A stretch of 25,032 bases of DNA. It comes from an uncultured archaeon (GTDB taxonomy: Archaea; Asgardarchaeota; Thorarchaeia; Thorarchaeales; Thorarchaeaceae). Location: assembly GCA_964458565.1 (NCBI GenBank), contig CAYWJO010000049.1, positions 1-25,032 of the forward strand, read 5' to 3'. Position 1 is the stretch's first letter, and every line of letters starts with the position of its first letter. The translations under genes were made by a program, and so were the position numbers. This document shows positions 297 to 9,408 of the stretch, piece by piece. The notes beneath the pieces are model-generated. The model was not told the DNA's origin, searched no databases, and was given only the letters and a program-made list of their open reading frames with translations.

Positions 297-321
297 AGTT
301 TATTACTTTCAGGTGAGACGC

Positions 322-2115
322 ATGGGAACTTCAAAGGGTACGGTCATCAGTGTAAAAGTCCCGATAAAGTGGGATGCTATGACCGAGAGGCAGAAGACTC
401 GACTCTCTCGAATAACAAGTAGAGATACACGGGTGATTCAAGCCTTCCTTGGAGTGATTGCATATCACGAGAAAGAACTTCTTGTCGGAAAGAGAAACAA
501 GAAAGTCAACGGTGCGAAGCTGGAGAAGATAACACTCACAGCTGAGAGGTCTAGAGATGAGTCCAAACATAGGACTATTGTCCCTCATGACTTCAAAGAG
601 AGATTCCCGAATATATCATTGAATGAACTACAGGAATGCAGACAGGTCGCTGTTGCCATGTGGAACAGCTATCTTGCTCTGGAGGGCGAACATCCTATGA
701 AGAGCAAGGGATACAGACCCCGTAAACTTCCTAGATATGTATTCAATCGCAGGTTCAAGGTCATCTATACTCCTGAGAAAGAGATCAACCACTGGCTCAG
801 GCTCATGGATTCCCTCGACTCTGCAAAGACACCTGGGCACTACCACGACTACCTTATGATTCCTCTCAGTCCTTCCTCTTATCATCTGAATAAGATGAAT
901 GAAGGAAAGGTTACATCACTTCGCCTTCTCAAGGACAGAAAACGGAAGTGGTGGGCGGTCTTCTCTGTACGCGTCAATGTCCCCGATATCTCAAACGGTT
1001 CGAAGTCACCTGCTATCCTAGGGATAGACCTTGGAATAGACAAGGCTGTCTGTTCAGTGGTATTGACTAGGAGTAAGGTACGACATGCGAGATATTTCAC
1101 GCAGCATGATAAGGTGAAGCGAATCGAGAAATTAGATAGACGGGTAGACGCTCTACAACATGAGATGGACACACGATTGAACAATGGTATTCCAGCTGAT
1201 GATATTGTCCTAAAATTGAGAGCACTCAGCGGGAAACGGAAGAATGTCAGTATCGATGATGACAGAGTCTTAGTGAAACAACTCACTGAGCATATTCTTG
1301 AGTTATCAAAGAAATATGACCTCTACGTTGCTATAGGGAAACTTACGGGTATTCGTGACAGTGCCAATCGAGGTAGTGGGAAGAAAAAGTCCTTCCGCTC
1401 AAAAGTTGCCCGGTGGACCTTTGCACGATTCACAAACTGGCTCAGGCACTCCCTTGCTCAGCAGGGCTGGAAAGTCTCCGGTTACGGCTCGCGATTCTTC
1501 ACAATTCGTGAATATTGGACAAGTCGTACCTGCCACAAGTGTGGGCACATCGGAATCAGGCCAAAGCAGTCGTTGTTCATCTGTCACACGTGCGGATATC
1601 GTACCAATGCCGACAAGAACGGCGCTATCAACATAGCAAGGCGCCTTATCAGGTTCATACCCTCTCTGAGGGATGAAGACAATGGACTAGGGCAGTGGCT
1701 CTTGCCTCATGAGAGGTCGGGGTCAACCCTGAAGGCCTCAAGGAGCTCGCGCTCTAAGAGGAAGTCCAGACCCTCTTCGAAGTTGTCAGCTTCAGGAAGG
1801 GGGTCCGTGGCTGAGTGCCATACTCAGGCTTCTTTGACCGAGTTTGAGGGTACTACCGATCCAGCCATGGAAAGTGCCGCGGAAATACCGTCTGCCGCCG
1901 TTGACGCCCGAAAGGCAACTGACAGTCATGGCAGTACAGTGCAGCGGAGTGAAGCTCAGTGCCAAGAGAGAAGTGTTGCTTCGGTGACCTTGGACAAAGC
2001 CCGTGTACACGGGTCGGGAGCGGTCTCGACTCTTGCTGGTGACAGCAGTCGCGAGAAGGGTAGAACGCGGAAGTCAGAGGTCATAGAAGGGGTTCACTCA
2101 CCTTCTAAAGACTAA
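322..2115 (+). CDS. tnpB: TnpB/Cas12f-like RNA-guided endonuclease, RuvC-II-rearranged type, with long disordered C-terminal tail
   Basis: Numbering from the 313 ORF: RuvC-I ILGIDLG (D239), YVAIGKL (G342 at the usual Glu position), REYWTS (E400), zinc finger CHKC...CHTC, RuvC-III NADKNGAINI (D434). ATG 322 is preferred because AGGTGA lies at 311-316. Confidence 0.9.
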   Translation: MGTSKGTVISVKVPIKWDAMTERQKTRLSRITSRDTRVIQAFLGVIAYHEKELLVGKRNKKVNGAKLEKITLTAERSRDESKHRTIVPHDFKERFPNISLNELQECRQVAVAMWNSYLALEGEHPMKSKGYRPRKLPRYVFNRRFKVIYTPEKEINHWLRLMDSLDSAKTPGHYHDYLMIPLSPSSYHLNKMNEGKVTSLRLLKDRKRKWWAVFSVRVNVPDISNGSKSPAILGIDLGIDKAVCSVVLTRSKVRHARYFTQHDKVKRIEKLDRRVDALQHEMDTRLNNGIPADDIVLKLRALSGKRKNVSIDDDRVLVKQLTEHILELSKKYDLYVAIGKLTGIRDSANRGSGKKKSFRSKVARWTFARFTNWLRHSLAQQGWKVSGYGSRFFTIREYWTSRTCHKCGHIGIRPKQSLFICHTCGYRTNADKNGAINIARRLIRFIPSLRDEDNGLGQWLLPHERSGSTLKASRSSRSKRKSRPSSKLSASGRGSVAECHTQASLTEFEGTTDPAMESAAEIPSAAVDARKATDSHGSTVQRSEAQCQERSVASVTLDKARVHGSGAVSTLAGDSSREKGRTRKSEVIEGVHSPSKD

Positions 2116-2140
2116 GACAGGTCGGTGCATGCAGCCGAGA
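1690..2140 (+). ncRNA. Putative omegaRNA/sotRNA overlapping the tnpB 3' end
   Basis: Dense stems: GACCCTCTTC/GAAGGGGGTC, CTGAGT/ACTCAG, GCC-CGAAA-GGC, C(TTCG)G tetraloop, the palindrome CCCGTGTACACGGG, GTCGGGA/TCTCGAC and TAGAAGG/CCTTCTA. The encoded protein here is low-complexity. TnpB omegaRNAs are known to overlap the ORF 3' end. Confidence 0.7.
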
Positions 2141-2266
2141 ACATTAATGAGTAAGCCTCATCTTTGTATTGCAGATTCAAAAATATAGCTCATACAACCT
2201 GAAAATTAATCTATTATCCATAATATATATGACCAATCTTAGTAATTAGATTACAGGTGGTAGACG

Positions 2267-2734
2267 ATGGGTGAAACAAATCCAAAAATAACACTTCGAA
2301 TAAAAATCGATGAACTTGAAATAGAAGTTCAAGCAGATGGAATTTCAAATCTTGAGAGTGCTTATTTGTCACTCCTATATACGAGAACGAAGCTAGGAGA
2401 AATCAAGAGGAAGCACCAAGCTTTACTAATCGCTGAAGAGGCTAAAGAAAAGGCAAGTCGTTACTGGGTTGAAGCAGAAGGCAAAAGAAAACTCATTGGT
2501 ATTGATGATACACCCATCTCTATCATTTTATCTCTTTTAGACTCATATCCAGAGGGTAAGAAAGGTTCGACAGTATCTGAGGAAACTAGTGTCGGTCATC
2601 CAACAGTCAGCAAGTATTTTTCAGGTGCATACGGTGAACATGCAGCATTCTTTGAAAAGTGTAATAGTGAATGGAAACTTAGCTCAGAAGGTGTATTTTA
2701 CATACATAATTGGTTAAGCGAAAATGCAGAATGA
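2267..2734 (+). CDS. Hypothetical protein with probable C-terminal winged HTH
   Basis: SD-like CAGGTGG upstream. STVSEETSVGHPTVSKYFS is helix-turn-helix-like and WKLSSEG is wing-like. Confidence 0.6.
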   Translation: MGETNPKITLRIKIDELEIEVQADGISNLESAYLSLLYTRTKLGEIKRKHQALLIAEEAKEKASRYWVEAEGKRKLIGIDDTPISIILSLLDSYPEGKKGSTVSEETSVGHPTVSKYFSGAYGEHAAFFEKCNSEWKLSSEGVFYIHNWLSENAE

Positions 2735-2810: not shown

Positions 2811-3221
2811 ATGCCCCCTAAGGATATGAACATCATCGTGTTGGGATGCATGCAATGTATGTATGCAGCAGCAGACCTTGCAGGAACGATGAAGCTGCAG
2901 TACGATGTGAGTGCGAGGATAATCCGAATGCCGTGTACCGCACGATTGGATCTCAACTTCATCCTGAAAGCACTGCAAGAGGGGGCAGATGGAGTACTGA
3001 TCGTTGGATGTCATCCTGGGGACTGCGCATACAAGACCGGAAACTTGGGGGCAGAACGACGTGTCAGATTTGCGAGGAAGTTGATTGCAAGCCTTGGAAT
3101 CGACGAGCGTCGCGTGAAAATGGTGTTTGTTTCAGCAGCGGAGGGCGATAAGTTTGCAGAAGAAGTCAACACCTTTGCTGACGAGATACGCGCAATAGGG
3201 CCAAATCCAATCAGATTATGA
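2811..3221 (+). CDS. mvhD: Hydrogenase/heterodisulfide reductase [2Fe-2S] subunit MvhD/FlpD (all-Cys form)
   Basis: CxxCxYAAADLAG, IIRMPCTAR, GADGVLIVGCHPGDC and SAAEG..F...GPNP motifs; GGAGG SD upstream. Confidence 0.95.
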   Translation: MPPKDMNIIVLGCMQCMYAAADLAGTMKLQYDVSARIIRMPCTARLDLNFILKALQEGADGVLIVGCHPGDCAYKTGNLGAERRVRFARKLIASLGIDERRVKMVFVSAAEGDKFAEEVNTFADEIRAIGPNPIRL

Positions 3222-3449
3222 GTTTCATACTGTATATACTGTAATCGTATCTGGATTGAAAACCAGCTGCTATATCTTACTTGATTATTGTGTCATTAGT
3301 GACTCCAGTATATGTTCTAAACATCCATAATTTACTATTAAAAAGTTTTAATATTCAATACATCAATAAAATAATGGGGAGCACACAAGTCAAACACAAG
3401 TCGTGATTTATCATAGATTGTGTAGTCATCTATAAAGGAGTAATGTGTA

Positions 3450-3647
3450 ATGAAAAATTCAAATAGGGAACTGATTGCCGTCTATGTACTGATGCCTCTC
3501 TTGACCCTATCTTTCTTTATGAGTTCATTAGTATTTTTAGTGAACCAATCTTCTAGAAATCAAGATAGTGACTTTTCAGGTCTTAGGGCATTTGCAACAT
3601 TGGAAATCCAATTAATGCGAGGGGGATTATCCCCCCTCTTTTCTTGA
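3450..3647 (+). CDS. Small single-pass membrane protein (putative)
   Basis: AAAGGAG SD upstream; hydrophobic stretch LIAVYVLMPLLTLSFFMSSLVFLV. Confidence 0.4.
   Translation: MKNSNRELIAVYVLMPLLTLSFFMSSLVFLVNQSSRNQDSDFSGLRAFATLEIQLMRGGLSPLFS
3619..3645 (+). terminator. Terminator-like hairpin
   Basis: GAGGGGG-ATTATC-CCCCCTC followed by TTTTCTT. Confidence 0.4.
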
Positions 3648-3648
3648 G

Positions 3649-5007
3649 TTGAACAACATGAACAAAACTATATCTCGAACTCCAAGGAAAACTCTATTGA
3701 TATTGCTCGTTGTTTCTATACTACAATCTACTTGTATATCGAATACGAGTATATCTTATCCAACACCTACTACACAAGTTCATGTGCACTTAAGCTATGC
3801 AACCACTCGAATAGATGCAATTACAGACTATATTTTATCTTTGTATTTGGATGAGGGCATGTTTTATGGATGGCTAAGGGACACACCACCAGACCTCAGA
3901 ATTGGATCCACTCCTAATATCTTCGATGTCTATGATGCATATCGAGTTCTTAATATGCTTGATAGAACAGATGTGCTTGATTGGACCAATTGTACCGAGT
4001 TTCTACGAAGTCTTGTGAACACCGACCCAGTCTCACCATCATATTATGGCTTGGTCAATCTTTCTATTACATCCTCGCCCAGTGTTATCTCATGTGATGT
4101 TGCAATTGAGTTGTTCCCAGAACTCGGTCTGGAGAGCTTGATTTTTGAACAAGAGATAGCTGAATATATAGTTCAGGCACAGACACCAAACGGTGGTTTT
4201 AGGTTGCGGCCGGATAATTCAGACCCGCCTGACATGATTACAACTTGGTCCGCACTGAGAGCAATGCACACACTCAATCATCTATCAGATATTGACACCT
4301 CAAAGGCAGTTGACTTCGTTATGTCTTGCTACACTGCGAACGGTGGCTTCTCGAATGTTCCTTATTATGACTCCAATCCGGATGTAGTTCCATTGGGCCT
4401 CTTTTGTTTAGAGCTTCTCAATAGGTTCGATCTCGTGAGAGTGACGAATACGACCAACTATCTCTTACAGTACTGGGACAACAATACTGGTCATGTTGTT
4501 GATGGCACATTGGTAAATACAGAACGGTTCGTTTGGTCACTTAAGACACTGGGTACACTCAGTCAAATCAATATTAACAAAACATTGGAATGGGTTTTGG
4601 CGTGTCAGAATACACGCAATGGTTTGTTTCTTCCAATACCAAATTATGACTATGATAGTGAACGACTTGAATGGTGTAGAGCTGCTGTACATATACTTGA
4701 TCTTTGCGACAGATTGGATCTGCTAGAAGAACCTATCACTCTGATTGAACATCCAGTATATACTACTCCCCAATGGTATATCGATTATATCAACGAGCAT
4801 TTTGGAACTCAAACCAACACAGGAAATGGTGTCCATCCAATATGGCCCAACATCGACATAGCTGCTTTCTTAGTCAATAGTCTTCCTCTTATGGGTATTG
4901 CATTCATTATATCTCTTCCAGCTGTCTATATAACATGGTCTAAACGAAAGAAACGAGATGAACGCAGAGAACAGCATGAAAGACGAAAAAAGATGAGGGG
5001 AAAGTAA
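3649..5007 (+). CDS. Prenyltransferase/squalene-cyclase-repeat protein, membrane anchored
   Basis: Repeats AQTPNGGF, CYTANGGFS and CQNTRNGLF with intervening helices. Hydrophobic N-terminal signal, and a C-terminal TM helix followed by a K/R-rich tail. Start could be ATG 3658. Confidence 0.8.
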   Translation: MNNMNKTISRTPRKTLLILLVVSILQSTCISNTSISYPTPTTQVHVHLSYATTRIDAITDYILSLYLDEGMFYGWLRDTPPDLRIGSTPNIFDVYDAYRVLNMLDRTDVLDWTNCTEFLRSLVNTDPVSPSYYGLVNLSITSSPSVISCDVAIELFPELGLESLIFEQEIAEYIVQAQTPNGGFRLRPDNSDPPDMITTWSALRAMHTLNHLSDIDTSKAVDFVMSCYTANGGFSNVPYYDSNPDVVPLGLFCLELLNRFDLVRVTNTTNYLLQYWDNNTGHVVDGTLVNTERFVWSLKTLGTLSQININKTLEWVLACQNTRNGLFLPIPNYDYDSERLEWCRAAVHILDLCDRLDLLEEPITLIEHPVYTTPQWYIDYINEHFGTQTNTGNGVHPIWPNIDIAAFLVNSLPLMGIAFIISLPAVYITWSKRKKRDERREQHERRKKMRGK

Positions 5008-5186
5008 TACTCATGGTTTTTGGTCACGAAAAACTGTATAATCTCCAATAAATCAAGAATCTAAACAAGCCAGATAGCCAGACAGATTGACAGAGTGATC
5101 CTGACTTCAAACGGTTCAATTATCAATAATCCGCTAATTCTAGTTCAAGATATTCAATTAGACTCTAATAATACTTAAACAGTGTT

Positions 5187-5735
5187 TCAAGATTTATGAT
5201 ATTTTCTCTCTCCTGCTCTAATAGGAAATTCCAACCAATTCTCTTGAGGAGTTATCGGACATGGAAATGATTCATTATAGGCACAAGCAAAATTGAACGA
5301 TTTGTTAAAGTCTAAAGTGATGATTTCTTGGTCTATTTCTTCAATGAGTAACAGCCGTCCATTAGGATAGCTCTCTGTACTACATGTAGAGTCCCTAAAT
5401 CCCACATAGTAGCCATCAGTTTGCTTATCATAAATAATGAACAAGCGAATGTCTTCATGTTCATATGTAAATTCTACATGGCCCGATTCAAGAAATGGAT
5501 CAGTTGGCGTTCCATCTGCCCTTGATAGGATTCTCTCTCTTTTGTCTTCGAATAGAGTTAGTCTAGCATTGAATTTAAACTTGGGATTAATTGGAAAGAA
5601 ATTCAGCTTCAGATCCTCGCGTTCAGATTCAGGAACCGGAGACCATAAGATATCCCCTATCATCACTCCTTTACTCAACTCCTTCTCTCGCTCTTTTCTC
5701 CACGCTATTATTTCATCATCATAAGACATAGGCAT
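5187..5735 (-). CDS. DUF1684 family protein
   Basis: Motifs WRKERE, FRDxTxxxESYxxGR, LDFNKxFNxxCAYN and CPxxPxENxL...AGE. Confidence 0.85.
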   Translation of the reverse strand: MPMSYDDEIIAWRKEREKELSKGVMIGDILWSPVPESEREDLKLNFFPINPKFKFNARLTLFEDKRERILSRADGTPTDPFLESGHVEFTYEHEDIRLFIIYDKQTDGYYVGFRDSTCSTESYPNGRLLLIEEIDQEIITLDFNKSFNFACAYNESFPCPITPQENWLEFPIRAGERKYHKS

Positions 5736-5803
5736 TACTCAGTCTGACATTATTTCAACAATGTGGTCAATTGTAGAGATACAAATAACAATGTCTTTTG
5801 AAT

Positions 5804-5901
5804 GCGTTTATGGATACAGCCAAGGGAAACAAGTTCGCAGAAGAAGTGAAGTGTCTACTGAGAAAATTCGGGTGATTGGGTCAAATTCGACAAGATTGTA
5901 G
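5804..5901 (+). pseudogene. Decayed copy of the mvhD 3' end (one frameshift)
   Basis: Translates AFMDTAKGNKFAEEVKC/TEKIRVIGSNSTRL* versus MvhD VFVSAAEGDKFAEEVNTFADEIRAIGPNPIRL*. Confidence 0.8.
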
Positions 5902-5969
5902 CCGCACTTAGACGAATCACATCGAATTTTTCTTAGGGATGTATTCTGTAATCCCATCACTGCTTGCGC

Positions 5970-6581
5970 TCATTGACTGAGGAATGCCATCACCTTCTCA
6001 ATTAAATAGCAAGGGGTCTTGCCCAATATCCTACTGACATTTCCCTTTGAGGTCCCAGTAGCTTCTGCAATCTCTGTGGTTCGTTCCTTTTTCCAGATGT
6101 AACGGAAGCAGTATCGCAGTTGAGTTGTGGTAAGACCGAGAAGTGCTACATATAACAAGATTGCATTGATCACAATATTACTCTCTTCATCTGATGTATT
6201 CTCAGCAAACTTGAATCCAGCAGACCTGCTCATGTATTTTGCAATCTTTATCTCATTGAGTGCCTCTCTTGCATTCCAGAAGACTGGTCCATCGCACTCA
6301 TCAGCGTTTTTCTTCTTGATGATGACCTCTCCTGTGCCAAATCCCACTCGGAACTCAAAGCCTTCCATCAGCAGATTATGAAATAGGAATATAGCCGGTT
6401 GCCAACTACCAATCAAGAGTTCTATGCTATCTCCCTGTGTAAGCGTGGGAATAGCAAGGCAGTCATCCTTGAATCGCTCATATGTGTGGTTCAACAGGTT
6501 ACGAATTGTTCTATCCATCTTCTGTCGTTCTCGTGTATCTAGACCTCTTGACGCCATGATGTCGGCAATGACTGCAATCAT
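5970..6581 (-). CDS. satD: SatD family protein (class III nucleotide cyclase-like domain plus C-terminal HTH)
   Basis: AVIADIMASR, TQGDSI, FRVGFGTGEV and DGPVFWNAR motifs; C-terminal TTEIAEATGTSKGNVSRIL HTH. Confidence 0.8.
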   Translation of the reverse strand: MIAVIADIMASRGLDTRERQKMDRTIRNLLNHTYERFKDDCLAIPTLTQGDSIELLIGSWQPAIFLFHNLLMEGFEFRVGFGTGEVIIKKKNADECDGPVFWNAREALNEIKIAKYMSRSAGFKFAENTSDEESNIVINAILLYVALLGLTTTQLRYCFRYIWKKERTTEIAEATGTSKGNVSRILGKTPCYLIEKVMAFLSQ

Positions 6582-6587
6582 GTCGTT

Positions 6588-7079
6588 TCACCCAGTCAAC
6601 AAAAATCTGAAGATCCACCATGAGAGTGCTAAGGCCATCGTGATGCTCATGAAGGTACCTAGAATGTACCAGTCCGCACATGAACGATCATTGGTCTCCT
6701 TACTTGAGTATCTGAAAATCGCCTTACCCGCAATGACGATCGAGAGAAAGCTAAGAATAGATGAATATGACAATGCGCTGTCGAAATATGCTATCACAAT
6801 TGTCAGGAATATCAAGCTCCTCTCAACACATCCTATCAAATATCCCCCATATCTTAGACCTCCGCATCTCAATCCAATGTCCTCTCCAGATTCTTTTCCA
6901 ATCCCTCCAAAGATCAAGTCAATCACCAAGCCTGGCAAGAACAATGTCAATAGGTATCCCCATAGAATTATGGATAGATATGGTTCCAATGGGAACGACG
7001 GATATGCAACGGTCAGATAGAGAAATACAGTACTGATCACTGTCACCAGTAAACCCAAGATCCTTTGAACCAGCTTCAT
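6588..7079 (-). CDS. Multi-pass membrane protein, DUF3307/SatE-like
   Basis: GYLIGCVERSLI, KAIFRY and ADWYILGTFMS resemble the partner usually found beside satD; 4-5 TM segments. Confidence 0.7.
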   Translation of the reverse strand: MKLVQRILGLLVTVISTVFLYLTVAYPSFPLEPYLSIILWGYLLTLFLPGLVIDLIFGGIGKESGEDIGLRCGGLRYGGYLIGCVERSLIFLTIVIAYFDSALSYSSILSFLSIVIAGKAIFRYSSKETNDRSCADWYILGTFMSITMALALSWWIFRFLLTG

Positions 7080-7117
7080 TATACTCTCGCTTACACCTAA
7101 TCTTTCATACTATTAAA

Positions 7118-7196
7118 TGTTTACTATTATTATCAACAATATTAAATGTTAACTAATATAGTTAACAATTATATTTGTTTACCTATACGGTAAATG
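7118..7196. promoter_or_regulatory. Three 7-7-7 inverted-repeat operators at exact 29-bp spacing
   Basis: TGTTTAC-N7-ATCAACA (7118), TGTTAAC-N7-GTTAACA (7147), TGTTTAC-N7-GTAAATG (7176), upstream of the membrane protein/satD operon. Confidence 0.7.
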
Positions 7197-7243
7197 CATT
7201 GGTGGGATTAACTTGACTGAATTAGATGTTCTTCAAGCTCTAA

Positions 7244-7324
7244 ATGAACAAGAGATTCGCTAACGAGATCAACCGGTTTGCTGATGCGATACGAGCAATA
7301 GGTCCGAATCCGATCAGGCTTTAG
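7244..7324 (+). pseudogene. Second copy of the mvhD 3' end (26-codon mini-ORF)
   Basis: MNKRFANEINRFADAIRAIGPNPIRL*; 18 of the last 22 aa are identical to MvhD. Confidence 0.9.
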
Positions 7325-7327
7325 TTG

Positions 7328-7762
7328 TCAGAGGTGCTTCTTCATCGCATATGCTCGTACTTCGAATCCCATTTTATCATACAGACGTTTTGCCTCAATG
7401 GCTTTAGCAGGACAGTGAAGAAGTACGTAGTCAACGTTCTCTTCTTTGAGGATTTCAAGTAGTCTATCAAGCAGATCTTTACCAATGCCTTGACTTCGAA
7501 ATGAAGGATCAACAACCAAGAGTTCGATCTGAGCCACTTTGGATGCGTCCCATCTTCTTAAGACCTCACCAGGGACCTCTCGTAGATATGCAAAGACAAA
7601 CCCAATAACTCTGCCACCATCCTCTGCTATTAAAAGGCCTCTGGTGAACGACCAAGCTGGTTGAAAATCTGCTTCAGAAACTTCTGAATCAAACGAAGCG
7701 TATCTATTCGCAAGAGTAAGGATGTGTTTGATGTCTTGAGGTTTGAAGGCACGTATATCCAT
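7328..7762 (-). CDS. GNAT family N-acetyltransferase
   Basis: LVVDPSFRSQGIGKDLL acetyl-CoA motif and AKRLYDKMGF. Start reassigned to ATG 7762 (AGGAG SD). Confidence 0.9.
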   Translation of the reverse strand: MDIRAFKPQDIKHILTLANRYASFDSEVSEADFQPAWSFTRGLLIAEDGGRVIGFVFAYLREVPGEVLRRWDASKVAQIELLVVDPSFRSQGIGKDLLDRLLEILKEENVDYVLLHCPAKAIEAKRLYDKMGFEVRAYAMKKHL

Positions 7763-7869
7763 AGTCGCAACTCCTGTAAACCTACAAACGTGTCCTCTGT
7801 AATAATCTAATTCATCCCTATGATGTCCGTACCAAAAACAACCCGCACCTAATTCGAAGGTAACATCAC

Positions 7870-8379
7870 TCAACCTGTGCTATTTGTAGTTATTCTTTCA
7901 TGAGCCTTCTCAAGTGCCACAATCACGTCTGGTTCATTTGGATATATCTTCAGGTATGCTGAAGAAAGGGTTTCCACTTTCTCCCAATCTTCTAATTCAA
8001 TATGGCAGCAGATTGCATAATAGAACGCACTCTGATAGTCTGGTACTTGATCAAGAATTTCTGTGAATATATCAAGTCCCTCAAGCCACTCACCCTCATC
8101 GTATTTTCTTACCCCCTCTCCAAGCCTTCTCCCGACACGATTTCCAAATACCCAGGAGCTATATCCCATTGCACCAAGAGCAACTAATACCAAATCATGG
8201 ACAAGCCCCACGCAGAAACCAACGAAAAAGGCTATTGGAATTTCACTATTGGCGAATCCAATAACGGCAAGTAGTGCAGCACCTATCCCCCAGATAATAG
8301 GTCGATAAACTATCTCTATTAACACTCGTAATCGAGTGGGTCTTTCCAGTTTCGACATTACATATCGAATGCAGTTCAT
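7870..8379 (-). CDS. Membrane protein with C-terminal TPR repeats
   Basis: Two N-terminal TM helices, then a TPR-like pattern (LxEGxxxYxxGxWxExLxxFxxILxxxP). Confidence 0.65.
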   Translation of the reverse strand: MNCIRYVMSKLERPTRLRVLIEIVYRPIIWGIGAALLAVIGFANSEIPIAFFVGFCVGLVHDLVLVALGAMGYSSWVFGNRVGRRLGEGVRKYDEGEWLEGLDIFTEILDQVPDYQSAFYYAICCHIELEDWEKVETLSSAYLKIYPNEPDVIVALEKAHERITTNSTG

Positions 8380-8523: not shown

Positions 8524-9408
8524 ATGATAGTTACACCGACCATTGTATCATTGAGAGAGGGAGTCGAAATTGCCCTCATTTTAGCTATCATGCTATCTTA
8601 TCTACGGGGCACAAAACAACCCGAACTGAAGAGATACATCTATGGGGGTGCTCTGCTTGCAATCGTATCTAGTATCACAGTTGCATTCATATTAGGTGCA
8701 GTATGGGGAATATTCGAAGGTCCCGCCCTAGCATTGTTTGAAGGGTCAGTAATACTTGTTGCAGCCTTTCTTCTAACAACAATGGTTCTCTGGATGTGGC
8801 AGACCGGATCTGGCATAGCATCAGAGATTGAGGAATCCATGGCAGAGCAGGCGCTCGTAAAGAGTGGAGTAGGTCTCTTACTTCTAAGTTTCGCTCTTAT
8901 TTTGCGTGAAGGTGTCGAATTAGTCTTATTCACAACTGCATTAGTGATACAAGAAGGTGCAATCACATACCTAGGAGTTGCTCTTGGTCTGTCAATTGCT
9001 CTTGCTCTTGGTGTATTGATGTATTTAGGTTCTGTAAGAATTAGTATGAAAAAATTGTTCAATTGGACATCCGTGTTACTTGTATTATTTGCCGCAGGTA
9101 TGGTTGCTTATGGTATACACGAATTACAAGAGGCCGGATTGCTTCTATTTGGTCCTCTCGAGTTATGGAACATAAATCCTCCATTACTACCTGACGGAAG
9201 TTATCCATTATTACATGAGAATGGATTGATTGGTGGTTTGGCCAAGAGTCTGCTTGGATATAACGGAAACCCTTCAGCTCTTGAAATCATTGGTTACTTA
9301 GCATACCTGACAATCGTTTCTCTGTATTATTATTGGCATCAAATAAAAGCCGGTTCGTCATTCGAAACCACCAAAATGGAGAAGTCCAGTTCTATCCAGA
9401 CGGTATAG
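8524..9408 (+). CDS. FTR1/EfeU family iron permease
   Basis: Two REGVE (RExxE) motifs, GIHELQEAG, about 7 TM helices. Confidence 0.92.
   Translation: MIVTPTIVSLREGVEIALILAIMLSYLRGTKQPELKRYIYGGALLAIVSSITVAFILGAVWGIFEGPALALFEGSVILVAAFLLTTMVLWMWQTGSGIASEIEESMAEQALVKSGVGLLLLSFALILREGVELVLFTTALVIQEGAITYLGVALGLSIALALGVLMYLGSVRISMKKLFNWTSVLLVLFAAGMVAYGIHELQEAGLLLFGPLELWNINPPLLPDGSYPLLHENGLIGGLAKSLLGYNGNPSALEIIGYLAYLTIVSLYYYWHQIKAGSSFETTKMEKSSSIQTV

What the first reader, a model, noticed from the sequence alone, without database searches (positions are those of the whole stretch)
3123..7324. Cassette array punctuated by repeated copies of the mvhD 3' end
Seen: the last 25-32 codons of mvhD (3123-3221) recur in the same orientation at 5804-5901 (frameshifted) and 7244-7324 (intact). 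In the latter, IRAIGPNPIRL is identical while 6 of its 11 codons differ synonymously, so it diverged under protein-level selection. Each copy is followed closely by the stop codon of a convergent accessory gene (satD 5970, GNAT 7328). Inference: repeated additive integration at the mvhD tail, where incoming DNA supplies a replacement 3' end plus cargo and displaces the old tail. This gives an integron-like gene-capture site anchored on a metabolic protein gene rather than a tRNA, with no integrase nearby. It could work by an integrase in trans or by homology-anchored recombination.
Basis: partly seen in the sequence, partly recalled or inferred. Interest (0 to 1): 0.8.

Follow-up and report, generated by a model that had tools for sequence, protein, structure and literature searches.

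The report
Cassette array anchored on archaeal mvhD
In Thorarchaeota (Asgard archaea) the small hydrogenase-subunit gene mvhD is a hot spot where accessory-gene cassettes pile up: each arrival leaves behind a copy of the gene beheaded at the same base, inside the sequence that a neighbouring RNA-guided nuclease (TnpB) is aimed at, and no ordinary integrase is found at the locus.

Summary
The two mvhD tail copies are real: 5807-5900, frameshifted, and 7255-7323, intact with only synonymous changes in its last 11 codons.

Comparison with about 80 Thorarchaeota loci supports repeated additive insertion. The region downstream of mvhD ranges from 117 nt to about 8 kb, and 24 of 59 loci carry extra same-strand mvhD pieces.

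The anchor is not the tail. At least 17 long fragments, behind at least 10 unrelated left flanks, begin at nt 40 (codon 14). The window's tails are decayed remnants of such fragments.

Cargo is small: toxin-antitoxin pairs, GNAT, defence-type nucleases and transporters. No integrase was found among the cargo proteins sampled.

In one genus pair the extra cassette sits exactly at nt 39/40 of the leading gene.

The upstream TnpB's guide (2126-2141) is the reverse complement of mvhD nt 29-44 as written in other genomes. It spans the junction and has at least 2 mismatches to its own allele.

My best reading is a nuclease-linked, integron-like accretion of displaced alleles plus cargo. The enzyme that makes the nt-39/40 junction is not identified, and the known TnpB cut position does not fit.

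Earlier scan notes had found the TnpB-mvhD guide link on this and other genomes. The link to the fragment arrays is new here.

The parts
313..2115 (+). TnpB-like RNA-guided nuclease gene (600 aa), syntenic upstream of mvhD in many Thorarchaeota
   Evidence: PF07282 Cas12f1-like TNB domain, E 1.5e-13. Orthologues at 43-69% identity lie in the same position in relatives.
2092..2125 (+). 3' end of the omega-RNA scaffold (GTTCACTCA ... ACAGGTCGG)
   Evidence: Conserved in 33 units of 29 loci. The GTTCACTCA motif is noted for Asgard TnpB loci in PMC10691335.
2126..2141 (+). Putative 16-nt guide, TGCATGCAGCCGAGAA. It is the reverse complement of mvhD nt 44-29 as written in other genomes.
   Evidence: A 13-nt exact match to 11 foreign alleles spans nt 39/40. 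It has 4 mismatches to the window's own allele and 1 to the nearest foreign allele.
2267..2734 (+). 155-aa ORF of no known family, lying between the guide and mvhD. Also present in G016; absent in most loci, where the guide lies 90-110 nt from mvhD.
2811..3221 (+). Leading, intact mvhD. The junction site nt 39/40 is at 2849/2850. The own-allele equivalent of the protospacer is 2839-2854 and of the putative TAM is 2855-2859.
3222..5803 (.). Cargo 1: 65-aa ORF (3450-3647 +), membrane-anchored prenyltransferase-like protein (3649-5007 +), DUF1684 protein (5187-5735 -)
   Evidence: Pfam PF00432 and PF07920. A DUF1684 homologue also lies in the G022 array.
5804..5901 (+). Tail 2: frameshifted remnant of a displaced mvhD copy (about nt 313-411)
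   Evidence: nhmmer E 1e-6; the two frames are shown.
5902..7226 (.). Cargo 2: SatD-family protein (5970-6581 -) and a 163-aa membrane protein (6588-7079 -) with their AT-rich upstream region
   Evidence: PF16264. No family found for the membrane protein.
7227..7324 (+). Tail 3: remnant of a displaced mvhD copy (solid from 7255, nt 342-411), with intact reading frame and stop
   Evidence: nhmmer E 1e-10; tblastn E 6e-6. It is slightly closer to foreign alleles (55/69) than to the window's own leading copy (47/62).
7328..8379 (-). Cargo 3: GNAT acetyltransferase (7328-7873) and a TPR membrane protein (7870-8379). The GNAT stop abuts the mvhD stop, as in relatives' cassettes.
   Evidence: Pfam. 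The same 5-nt GNAT-mvhD spacing occurs behind full copies, nt-40 fragments and tails in other loci.
8524..9408 (+). FTR1 permease: first gene of the conserved right flank (FTR1-HD-Lrp-JAB-Pop5-Rpp30)
   Evidence: Synteny in about 40 loci.

Best explanation
The 5' end of mvhD in Thorarchaeota is a polar, site-specific hot spot where accessory genes accumulate.

Incoming DNA carries its own mvhD body plus whatever lay downstream of it. It takes over the resident promoter-proximal position. The old gene body is left downstream, beheaded exactly at nt 39/40.

Repeated rounds give arrays of [mvhD nt 40-411 + cargo]. Displaced copies then homogenise with the leading copy, acquire frameshifts, and are deleted from their 5' side down to short tails. 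The window's two tails are the end state of this decay.

No classical recombinase was found at the locus. The process is coupled to the TnpB/omega-RNA unit directly upstream. Its guide matches mvhD nt 29-44 of other genomes' alleles but not its own, so TnpB is expected to break foreign alleles at this site. The break is then repaired by taking in the resistant allele and its neighbours.

Shown:
- the arrays
- the fixed junction
- front-end addition in one genus pair
- the guide-site complementarity

Inferred:
- that TnpB makes the break
- the repair route
For: 1. Backbone synteny is conserved while the gap after mvhD ranges from 117 nt to 7964 nt. Six loci are essentially empty (gap under 310 nt).
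2. 24 of 59 loci with a full copy hold extra pieces, all same-strand and downstream, up to 5 per locus.
3. At least 17 long fragments start at nt 40 (+/-1) behind at least 10 unrelated flanks.
4. G001 differs from its congener G016 by one extra [mvhD 40-411 + 3.8 kb] block. In G001 the colinear 3.2-kb match to G016 starts at the second fragment, and in G016 it starts at nt 40 of the leading gene.
5. Fragments keep 82-88% amino-acid identity at about 76-85% nucleotide identity, so they were under purifying selection before displacement.
6. The GNAT stop lies 5 nt from the mvhD end behind full copies, nt-40 fragments and tails alike, so tails are decayed fragments.
7. No integrase appeared among roughly 50 cargo proteins scanned, which included representatives of the main clusters. 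G000 has one PF00589 hit, on another contig, and no Y1 or serine recombinase hits.
8. The guide is the reverse complement of nt 29-44 in 33 units. Its variable positions are the gene's synonymous sites. Thirteen guide-allele pairs match perfectly, and own-allele mismatches are never below 2.
9. Codon 14, which is the guide seed, is recoded to CAA, ACT or AAC in six alleles, which looks like escape.
Against: - A related TnpB with the same rearranged active site cuts 21-22 nt from its TAM (PMC10530073). That would place the break near nt 23-24, not at 39/40.
- Many arrays lie in loci where I found no guide or TnpB within reach (one search compared), and some empty sites have a guide (L041).
- Avoidance of the own allele is statistically weak: P about 0.01 for at most 2 mismatches, and the genomes are related.
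- Most fragments are closest to their own leading copy. That also fits local duplication or gene conversion.
- Front-end addition rests on one genus pair and could instead be a loss in G016.
- TnpB activity was not tested.
Confidence: 0.5

Rival explanations
1. An unidentified site-specific recombinase or integrase acts in trans (or is encoded by the giant ORF upstream of TnpB in relatives). It excises and inserts [mvhD 40-411 + cargo] circles at a core site around nt 39/40, as an integron integrase does at attI and attC. On this reading the TnpB guide merely exploits the one part of mvhD that the fragments lack.
For: - One fixed junction behind at least 10 unrelated flanks.
- Compact cassettes and front-end addition.
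- A 1650-1830-aa ORF lies divergently upstream of TnpB in L079, L093, L095 and L096. It is multi-copy in some genomes, and pieces lie at contig ends in G000.
- The guide junction (nt 44/45) and the fragment junction (nt 39/40) are offset by 5 nt, as a 5-bp staggered strand transfer would leave.
Against: - No conserved half-site or inverted repeat lies on the cargo side of the junction.
- No target duplication flanks the inserts, and upstream 5' fragments end raggedly at nt 24-36.
- The giant ORF has no Pfam domain, no Cas1 HMM hit and no fold match.
- G000 has a single tyrosine recombinase hit, elsewhere in the genome.
Confidence: 0.25
2. Homologous recombination only. One ancestral 5'-truncated duplicate arose once. 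Arrays then grew and spread by unequal crossing-over, Campbell-type insertion of excised circles and gene conversion, with cargo turning over inside the cassettes.
For: - Copies recombine: the G016 leading copy and its fragment are 92-98% identical over nt 40-130 but 72-75% in the middle.
- Most fragments are nearest to their own leading copy.
- The DUF3368 junction is shared by at least 7 loci.
Against: Cargo turnover would have to replace sequence right up to the same nucleotide at least 10 times, and no bases are shared before nt 40. It also does not explain the TnpB guide on this site or the recoding of codon 14.
Confidence: 0.12
3. One reading: integration happens at the mvhD tail itself, and each event supplies only a replacement of the last 25-32 codons.
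For: In this window only tails are present, and tails almost always keep the stop codon.
Against: Tail 5' ends are scattered (profile nt 249-373) with no common breakpoint, whereas long fragments share nt 40. The same GNAT cassette occurs behind a full copy, an nt-40 fragment and a tail.
Confidence: 0.05
4. Decayed whole-gene tandem duplicates with fixed gene order, or assembly artefacts.
For: The genomes are MAGs, and repeats can be misassembled.
Against: - No fragment retains nt 1-39.
- Gene order is not fixed.
- The same junction appears in more than 15 MAGs from different studies and assemblers, on contigs of up to 590 kb.
Confidence: 0.03

Closest known systems
Integrons (IntI, attI, attC cassette arrays)
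   Same: Small, compact, mostly single-operon cassettes (GNAT, toxin-antitoxin pairs, transporters). Addition at the promoter-proximal end. One repeated element per cassette. Variable content among relatives.
   Different: No IntI and no attC. The repeated element is a 372-nt fragment of a housekeeping gene, and the insertion point lies inside that gene's coding sequence. (Integrons in Archaea have been reported; this is from my own knowledge and was not checked here.)
Tandem genomic islands and integrative elements that target a gene end and carry a replacement for it (tRNA, tmRNA or protein-gene targets; tycheposon-type islands)
   Same: Direct repeats of the target-gene portion flank each insert. 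The displaced original piece lies distal. Arrays grow at one site.
   Different: Those elements carry, or recently carried, an integrase and share an identical att core on both sides. Here the cassettes are 0.7-4 kb with no integrase in about 60 loci. The replaced part is 90% of the gene, and only the gene side of the junction is conserved. (Comparison from my own knowledge.)
IS200/IS605 TnpB-omega-RNA homing (OMEGA systems; PMC10055086, PMC8612924; Asgard TnpB groups in PMC10691335)
   Same: TnpB with a 3' omega-RNA whose guide matches DNA next to the element. The predicted role is cutting alleles that lack the element so that repair copies it in.
   Different: No TnpA was found in the genome. 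The TnpB is syntenic across genera. The guide targets a neighbouring host gene as written in other genomes. The outcome proposed here, stacked displaced alleles plus cargo, has not been described (0 papers hold both TnpB and MvhD).
Orphan C-terminal module arrays of CDI and Rhs toxins; silent pilS-type cassettes
   Same: A full gene followed by same-strand 5'-truncated copies that share a homology block with it.
   Different: Those fragments are hypervariable and serve diversification, paired with immunity genes. The mvhD fragments are conserved and decay, and the intervening genes are unrelated cargo. (Comparison from my own knowledge.)

Membership tests
Integron | IntI tyrosine recombinase gene next to the array | tested here: not met
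   No PF00589 domain in the locus proteins scanned. The single PF00589 hit in G000 is on contig C53.
Integron | attC imperfect palindrome at the end of each cassette | tested here: not met
   Cargo-side flanks of at least 10 junction types share no motif. The potential hairpin at nt 38-56 is no better than shuffled sequence.
Integron | New cassettes enter at the promoter-proximal site | tested here: met
   G001 compared with G016: the extra block lies exactly at nt 39/40 of the leading gene. This is one pair, and the direction is inferred.
Integrative element or genomic island at a protein-gene target | Direct repeats of the target-gene segment bound each insert | tested here: met
Integrative element or genomic island at a protein-gene target | Integrase encoded in the element | tested here: not met
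   None among roughly 50 cargo proteins scanned, which included representatives of the main clusters (Pfam).
IS200/IS605-type TnpB/omega-RNA (OMEGA) | TnpB protein with the RuvC/TNB architecture | tested here: met
   PF07282, E 1.5e-13. I did not check the catalytic residues. An earlier scan note reports a rearranged RuvC-II.
IS200/IS605-type TnpB/omega-RNA (OMEGA) | Guide at the 3' end of a conserved scaffold that matches a DNA target with an adjacent TAM | tested here: met
   Scaffold end GGTCGG followed by the reverse complement of mvhD nt 44-29 in 33 units. There are 13 perfect guide-allele pairs. The 5 nt next to the target read NRCAY in all alleles. Cleavage was not tested.
IS200/IS605-type TnpB/omega-RNA (OMEGA) | TnpA (Y1) transposase and mobile left and right ends | tested here: not met
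   No PF01797 hit in G000, which is 93% complete. The TnpB is syntenic across genera.
CRISPR-type or casposon-type Cas1 integration | Cas1 integrase encoded at the locus | tested here: not met
   PF01867 hits only canonical cas1 genes on other contigs in G000 and G001, and does not hit the giant ORF at E up to 1. Pfam finds nothing in the giant ORF. Fold searches of its C-terminal 504 aa were inconclusive.

The most novel reading that the evidence does not exclude
A domesticated TnpB/omega-RNA acts as a natural allele-specific gene drive on a host metabolic gene. Each successful attack on a foreign mvhD allele leaves that allele's beheaded body, plus DNA that hitch-hiked with the winner, stacked behind the gene. 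An RNA-guided nuclease, rather than an integrase, would thus build an integron-like accessory-gene array. The guide lies on the only part of the gene that the displaced copies lack, so they are spared.
Probability: 0.4. Interest if true: 0.9.

Novelty: new variant of a known kind. Interest (0 to 1): 0.8.

Why it matters
It would be a gene-capture platform in Asgard archaea that needs no integrase and is anchored inside a conserved metabolic gene.

It would also give TnpB, one of the most abundant prokaryotic genes, a concrete evolutionary consequence beyond keeping its own transposon: shaping a defence and toxin-antitoxin island.

The displaced fragments are dated fossils of past alleles, so the history of sweeps can be read from genomes.

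The prediction is directly testable with purified TnpB and synthetic mvhD targets.

Tried and rejected
- **Viral contigs.** No relative of this MvhD was found, so there is no sign of a phage or plasmid carrier.
- **tRNAs.** None in the window.
- **Hairpin at the junction (nt 38-56).** The energy is no better than shuffled sequence: z -0.4 to -2.0.
- **Giant ORF as Cas1, as earlier scan notes say.**
  - Pfam finds nothing.
  - The Cas1 HMM does not hit it.
  - The PDB sequence search and the ESM Atlas find nothing.
  - The AF2 model of the C-terminal 504 aa (pLDDT 75) gives only weak, below-noise hits to RNase-H-like folds.
  - Its nature stays open.
- **TnpB presence against arrays.** There is no clean correlation. 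Arrays occur without a detected guide, and an empty site (L041) has one.
- **Other giant-ORF + TnpB units (L150, L151, L153, L155).** They lie away from mvhD, some next to tRNA-like sequence, with no fragment arrays.
- **Other gene-tail arrays in G000.** Same-strand local repeats on C54, C64 and C1 are intergenic elements, not gene tails.
- **A second mvhD-directed guide in G000.** None found.
- **Literature.** No paper holds both TnpB and MvhD. Papers on Asgard mobile elements describe integrase-bearing elements, not this.
Full report
**What is in the window.**
- The window is a whole 25-kb contig of a 3.7-Mb Thorarchaeota MAG.
- mvhD is 2811-3221 + (FlpD domain).
- A nucleotide profile of 18 orthologues finds two further same-strand matches: 5807-5900 (profile nt 316-410, E 1e-6) and 7255-7323 (nt 342-410, E 1e-10).
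- Copy 3 also scores E 6e-6 by tblastn against the whole genome. None of the eight other MvhD paralogues was detected in this downstream region, and by eye their tail sequences resemble tail 3 less.
- Copy 2 is frameshifted. Copy 3 keeps IRAIGPNPIRL* with six synonymous codon changes.
- The genes between the copies are:
  - a prenyltransferase-like membrane protein and a DUF1684 protein;
  - then SatD and a membrane protein;
  - then GNAT and a TPR membrane protein.

**Relatives.**
- The backbone [TnpB]-mvhD-...-(FTR1)-HD-Lrp-JAB-Pop5-Rpp30 is conserved in about 80 Thorarchaeota loci.
- The stretch after mvhD runs from 117 nt (L050/L033) to 7964 nt. Six loci are essentially empty.
- 24 of 59 loci with a full copy carry extra mvhD pieces. 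All are downstream and on the same strand, up to five per locus (G022).
- Cargo families include:
  - VapBC and UPF0175/DUF3368-PIN toxin-antitoxin pairs;
  - AbiV-HEPN, a cytidine deaminase, a DNA methylase and a NucS/Shedu-like nuclease;
  - GNAT, MFS, isochorismatase, a DNA-alkylation repair protein and methyltransferases.
- No integrase appeared among roughly 50 cargo proteins scanned, which included representatives of the main clusters.

**The junction.**
- Long fragments do not start in the tail. They start at nt 40 (codon 14, ...TGY|ATGCARTGYATGTAYGC).
- At least 17 fragments do so behind at least 10 mutually unrelated left flanks, with no shared bases before nt 40.
- Tails nearly always keep the stop codon but have scattered 5' ends, at profile nt 249-373.
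- The GNAT gene ends 5 nt from the mvhD end behind full copies (G016, L070), nt-40 fragments (G001, L047) and tails (window, L052, L066).
- The window's tails are therefore decayed nt-40 fragments.

**Polarity and origin.**
- G001 and G016 belong to the same genus.
- They are colinear over the TnpB region (89% identity). In G001 the colinear 3.2-kb match to G016 starts at the second fragment, and in G016 it starts at nt 40 of the leading gene (79% identity).
- G001 has an extra [mvhD 40-411 + 3.8 kb: deaminase ... AbiV] block in front.
- G001's second fragment is closer to G016's copies (82%) than to G001's own leading copy (76%), so the leading copy came from elsewhere.
- Fragments retain 82-88% protein identity, so they were working gene bodies until displaced.
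- Copies also recombine with each other: G016's two copies are 92-98% identical over nt 40-130. Most fragments are nearest to their own leading copy.

**The nuclease link.**
- An earlier scan note said that the upstream TnpB's guide matches other strains' mvhD. I tested this.
- Directly after the conserved scaffold end (GTTCACTCA...ACAGGTCGG; the motif is noted in PMC10691335), window 2126-2141 reads TGCATGCAGCCGAGAA. This is the reverse complement of mvhD nt 44-29 in other genomes' alleles.
- A 13-nt exact match to 11 alleles spans nt 39/40.
- 33 such units occur in 29 loci, with two or three in tandem in L081, L090, L091 and L105.
- Guide variation falls on the gene's synonymous positions: guide positions 6, 9 and 12, which are the third bases of codons 13, 12 and 11.
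- Thirteen guide-allele pairs match perfectly. Own-allele mismatches range from 2 to 6 and are never 0 or 1. This is weak statistically because the genomes are related.
- Six alleles recode codon 14, the guide seed, to CAA, ACT or AAC.
- The fragments keep the putative TAM and guide positions 1-5 but lack positions 6-16, so they cannot be targets.

**What does not fit.**
- A related TnpB with a rearranged active site cuts 21-22 nt from its TAM (PMC10530073). That would be nt 23-24 here, not 39/40.
- Rare upstream 5' fragments (L057, L062, L069, L098, L101) end raggedly at nt 24-36. One side of the break is therefore fixed and the other is not.
- The guide boundary (nt 44/45) and the fragment boundary (nt 39/40) are offset by 5 nt and share ATGCA. 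A 5-nt staggered cut would leave this pattern. This remains unexplained.
- G000 has one tyrosine recombinase hit, elsewhere in the genome, and no Y1 or serine recombinase hits.
- A giant ORF lies divergently upstream of TnpB in some relatives, and pieces of it lie at contig ends in G000.
- That ORF is not recognisably Cas1 or any other known fold.

**Verdict.**
- The anchor point and the nature of the tails were misread, and the adjacent TnpB was missed.
- I put 0.5 on a TnpB-linked, break-and-repair accretion.
- I put 0.25 on an unknown site-specific enzyme.
- I put 0.12 on spread by homologous recombination alone from one ancestral junction.
- No paper in the library links TnpB and MvhD.

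Noticed in passing
window 313-2145; L081, L090, L091, L105 upstream of mvhD: Some relatives carry two or three tandem scaffold-end + guide units upstream of mvhD, each aimed at a different synonymous variant of codons 11-13. They resemble a miniature repeat-spacer array without CRISPR.
   Followed up: partly
L098 (G006) 640-760 and about 5769 (-): An mvhD 5' fragment (nt 1-30) is fused to the 3' part of a guide unit, and the TnpB with the rest of the guide lies inverted about 5 kb away. This looks like an inversion between the guide and its inverted match in mvhD.
   Followed up: partly
L079, L093, L095, L096 upstream of TnpB; G000 C79:1791-5126 and C47:24598-26112: A giant ORF (1650-1830 aa) with no Pfam domain lies divergently next to TnpB and is multi-copy in some genomes (18 of 81 searched). 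Invariant Cys, His and Asp residues lie in the C-terminal 500 aa. Earlier scan notes call it Cas1-like, which I could not confirm.
   Followed up: partly
window 2267-2734: A 155-aa ORF of no known family is inserted between the TnpB guide and the mvhD promoter. It is shared only with G016 (42% identity). In most loci the guide is 90-110 nt from mvhD.
   Followed up: no
G000 contigs C54 (1-171, 6047-6244, 10201-10346, 17407-17603 ...), C64 (1-126, 4777-4917, 10409-10506, 15246-15387) and C1 (240966-255090, about 4.5-kb spacing): Families of 70-200-nt intergenic direct repeats at 80-95% identity recur every few kb. They may be leader or regulatory RNAs or miniature elements. They are not gene tails.
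   Followed up: partly
L155 (G081:C80) about 15258 (-); L152 about 11657 (-): Other TnpB scaffold ends of the same family are followed by tRNA-like sequence (for example GTAGCTCAGACTGG and GGTTCAAATCCC). Sister units may therefore be aimed at tRNA genes.
   Followed up: no
window 5970-7079: The SatD-family protein plus a 163-aa membrane protein form a compact two-gene module. It was found only in this genome among the mvhD arrays examined.
   Followed up: no
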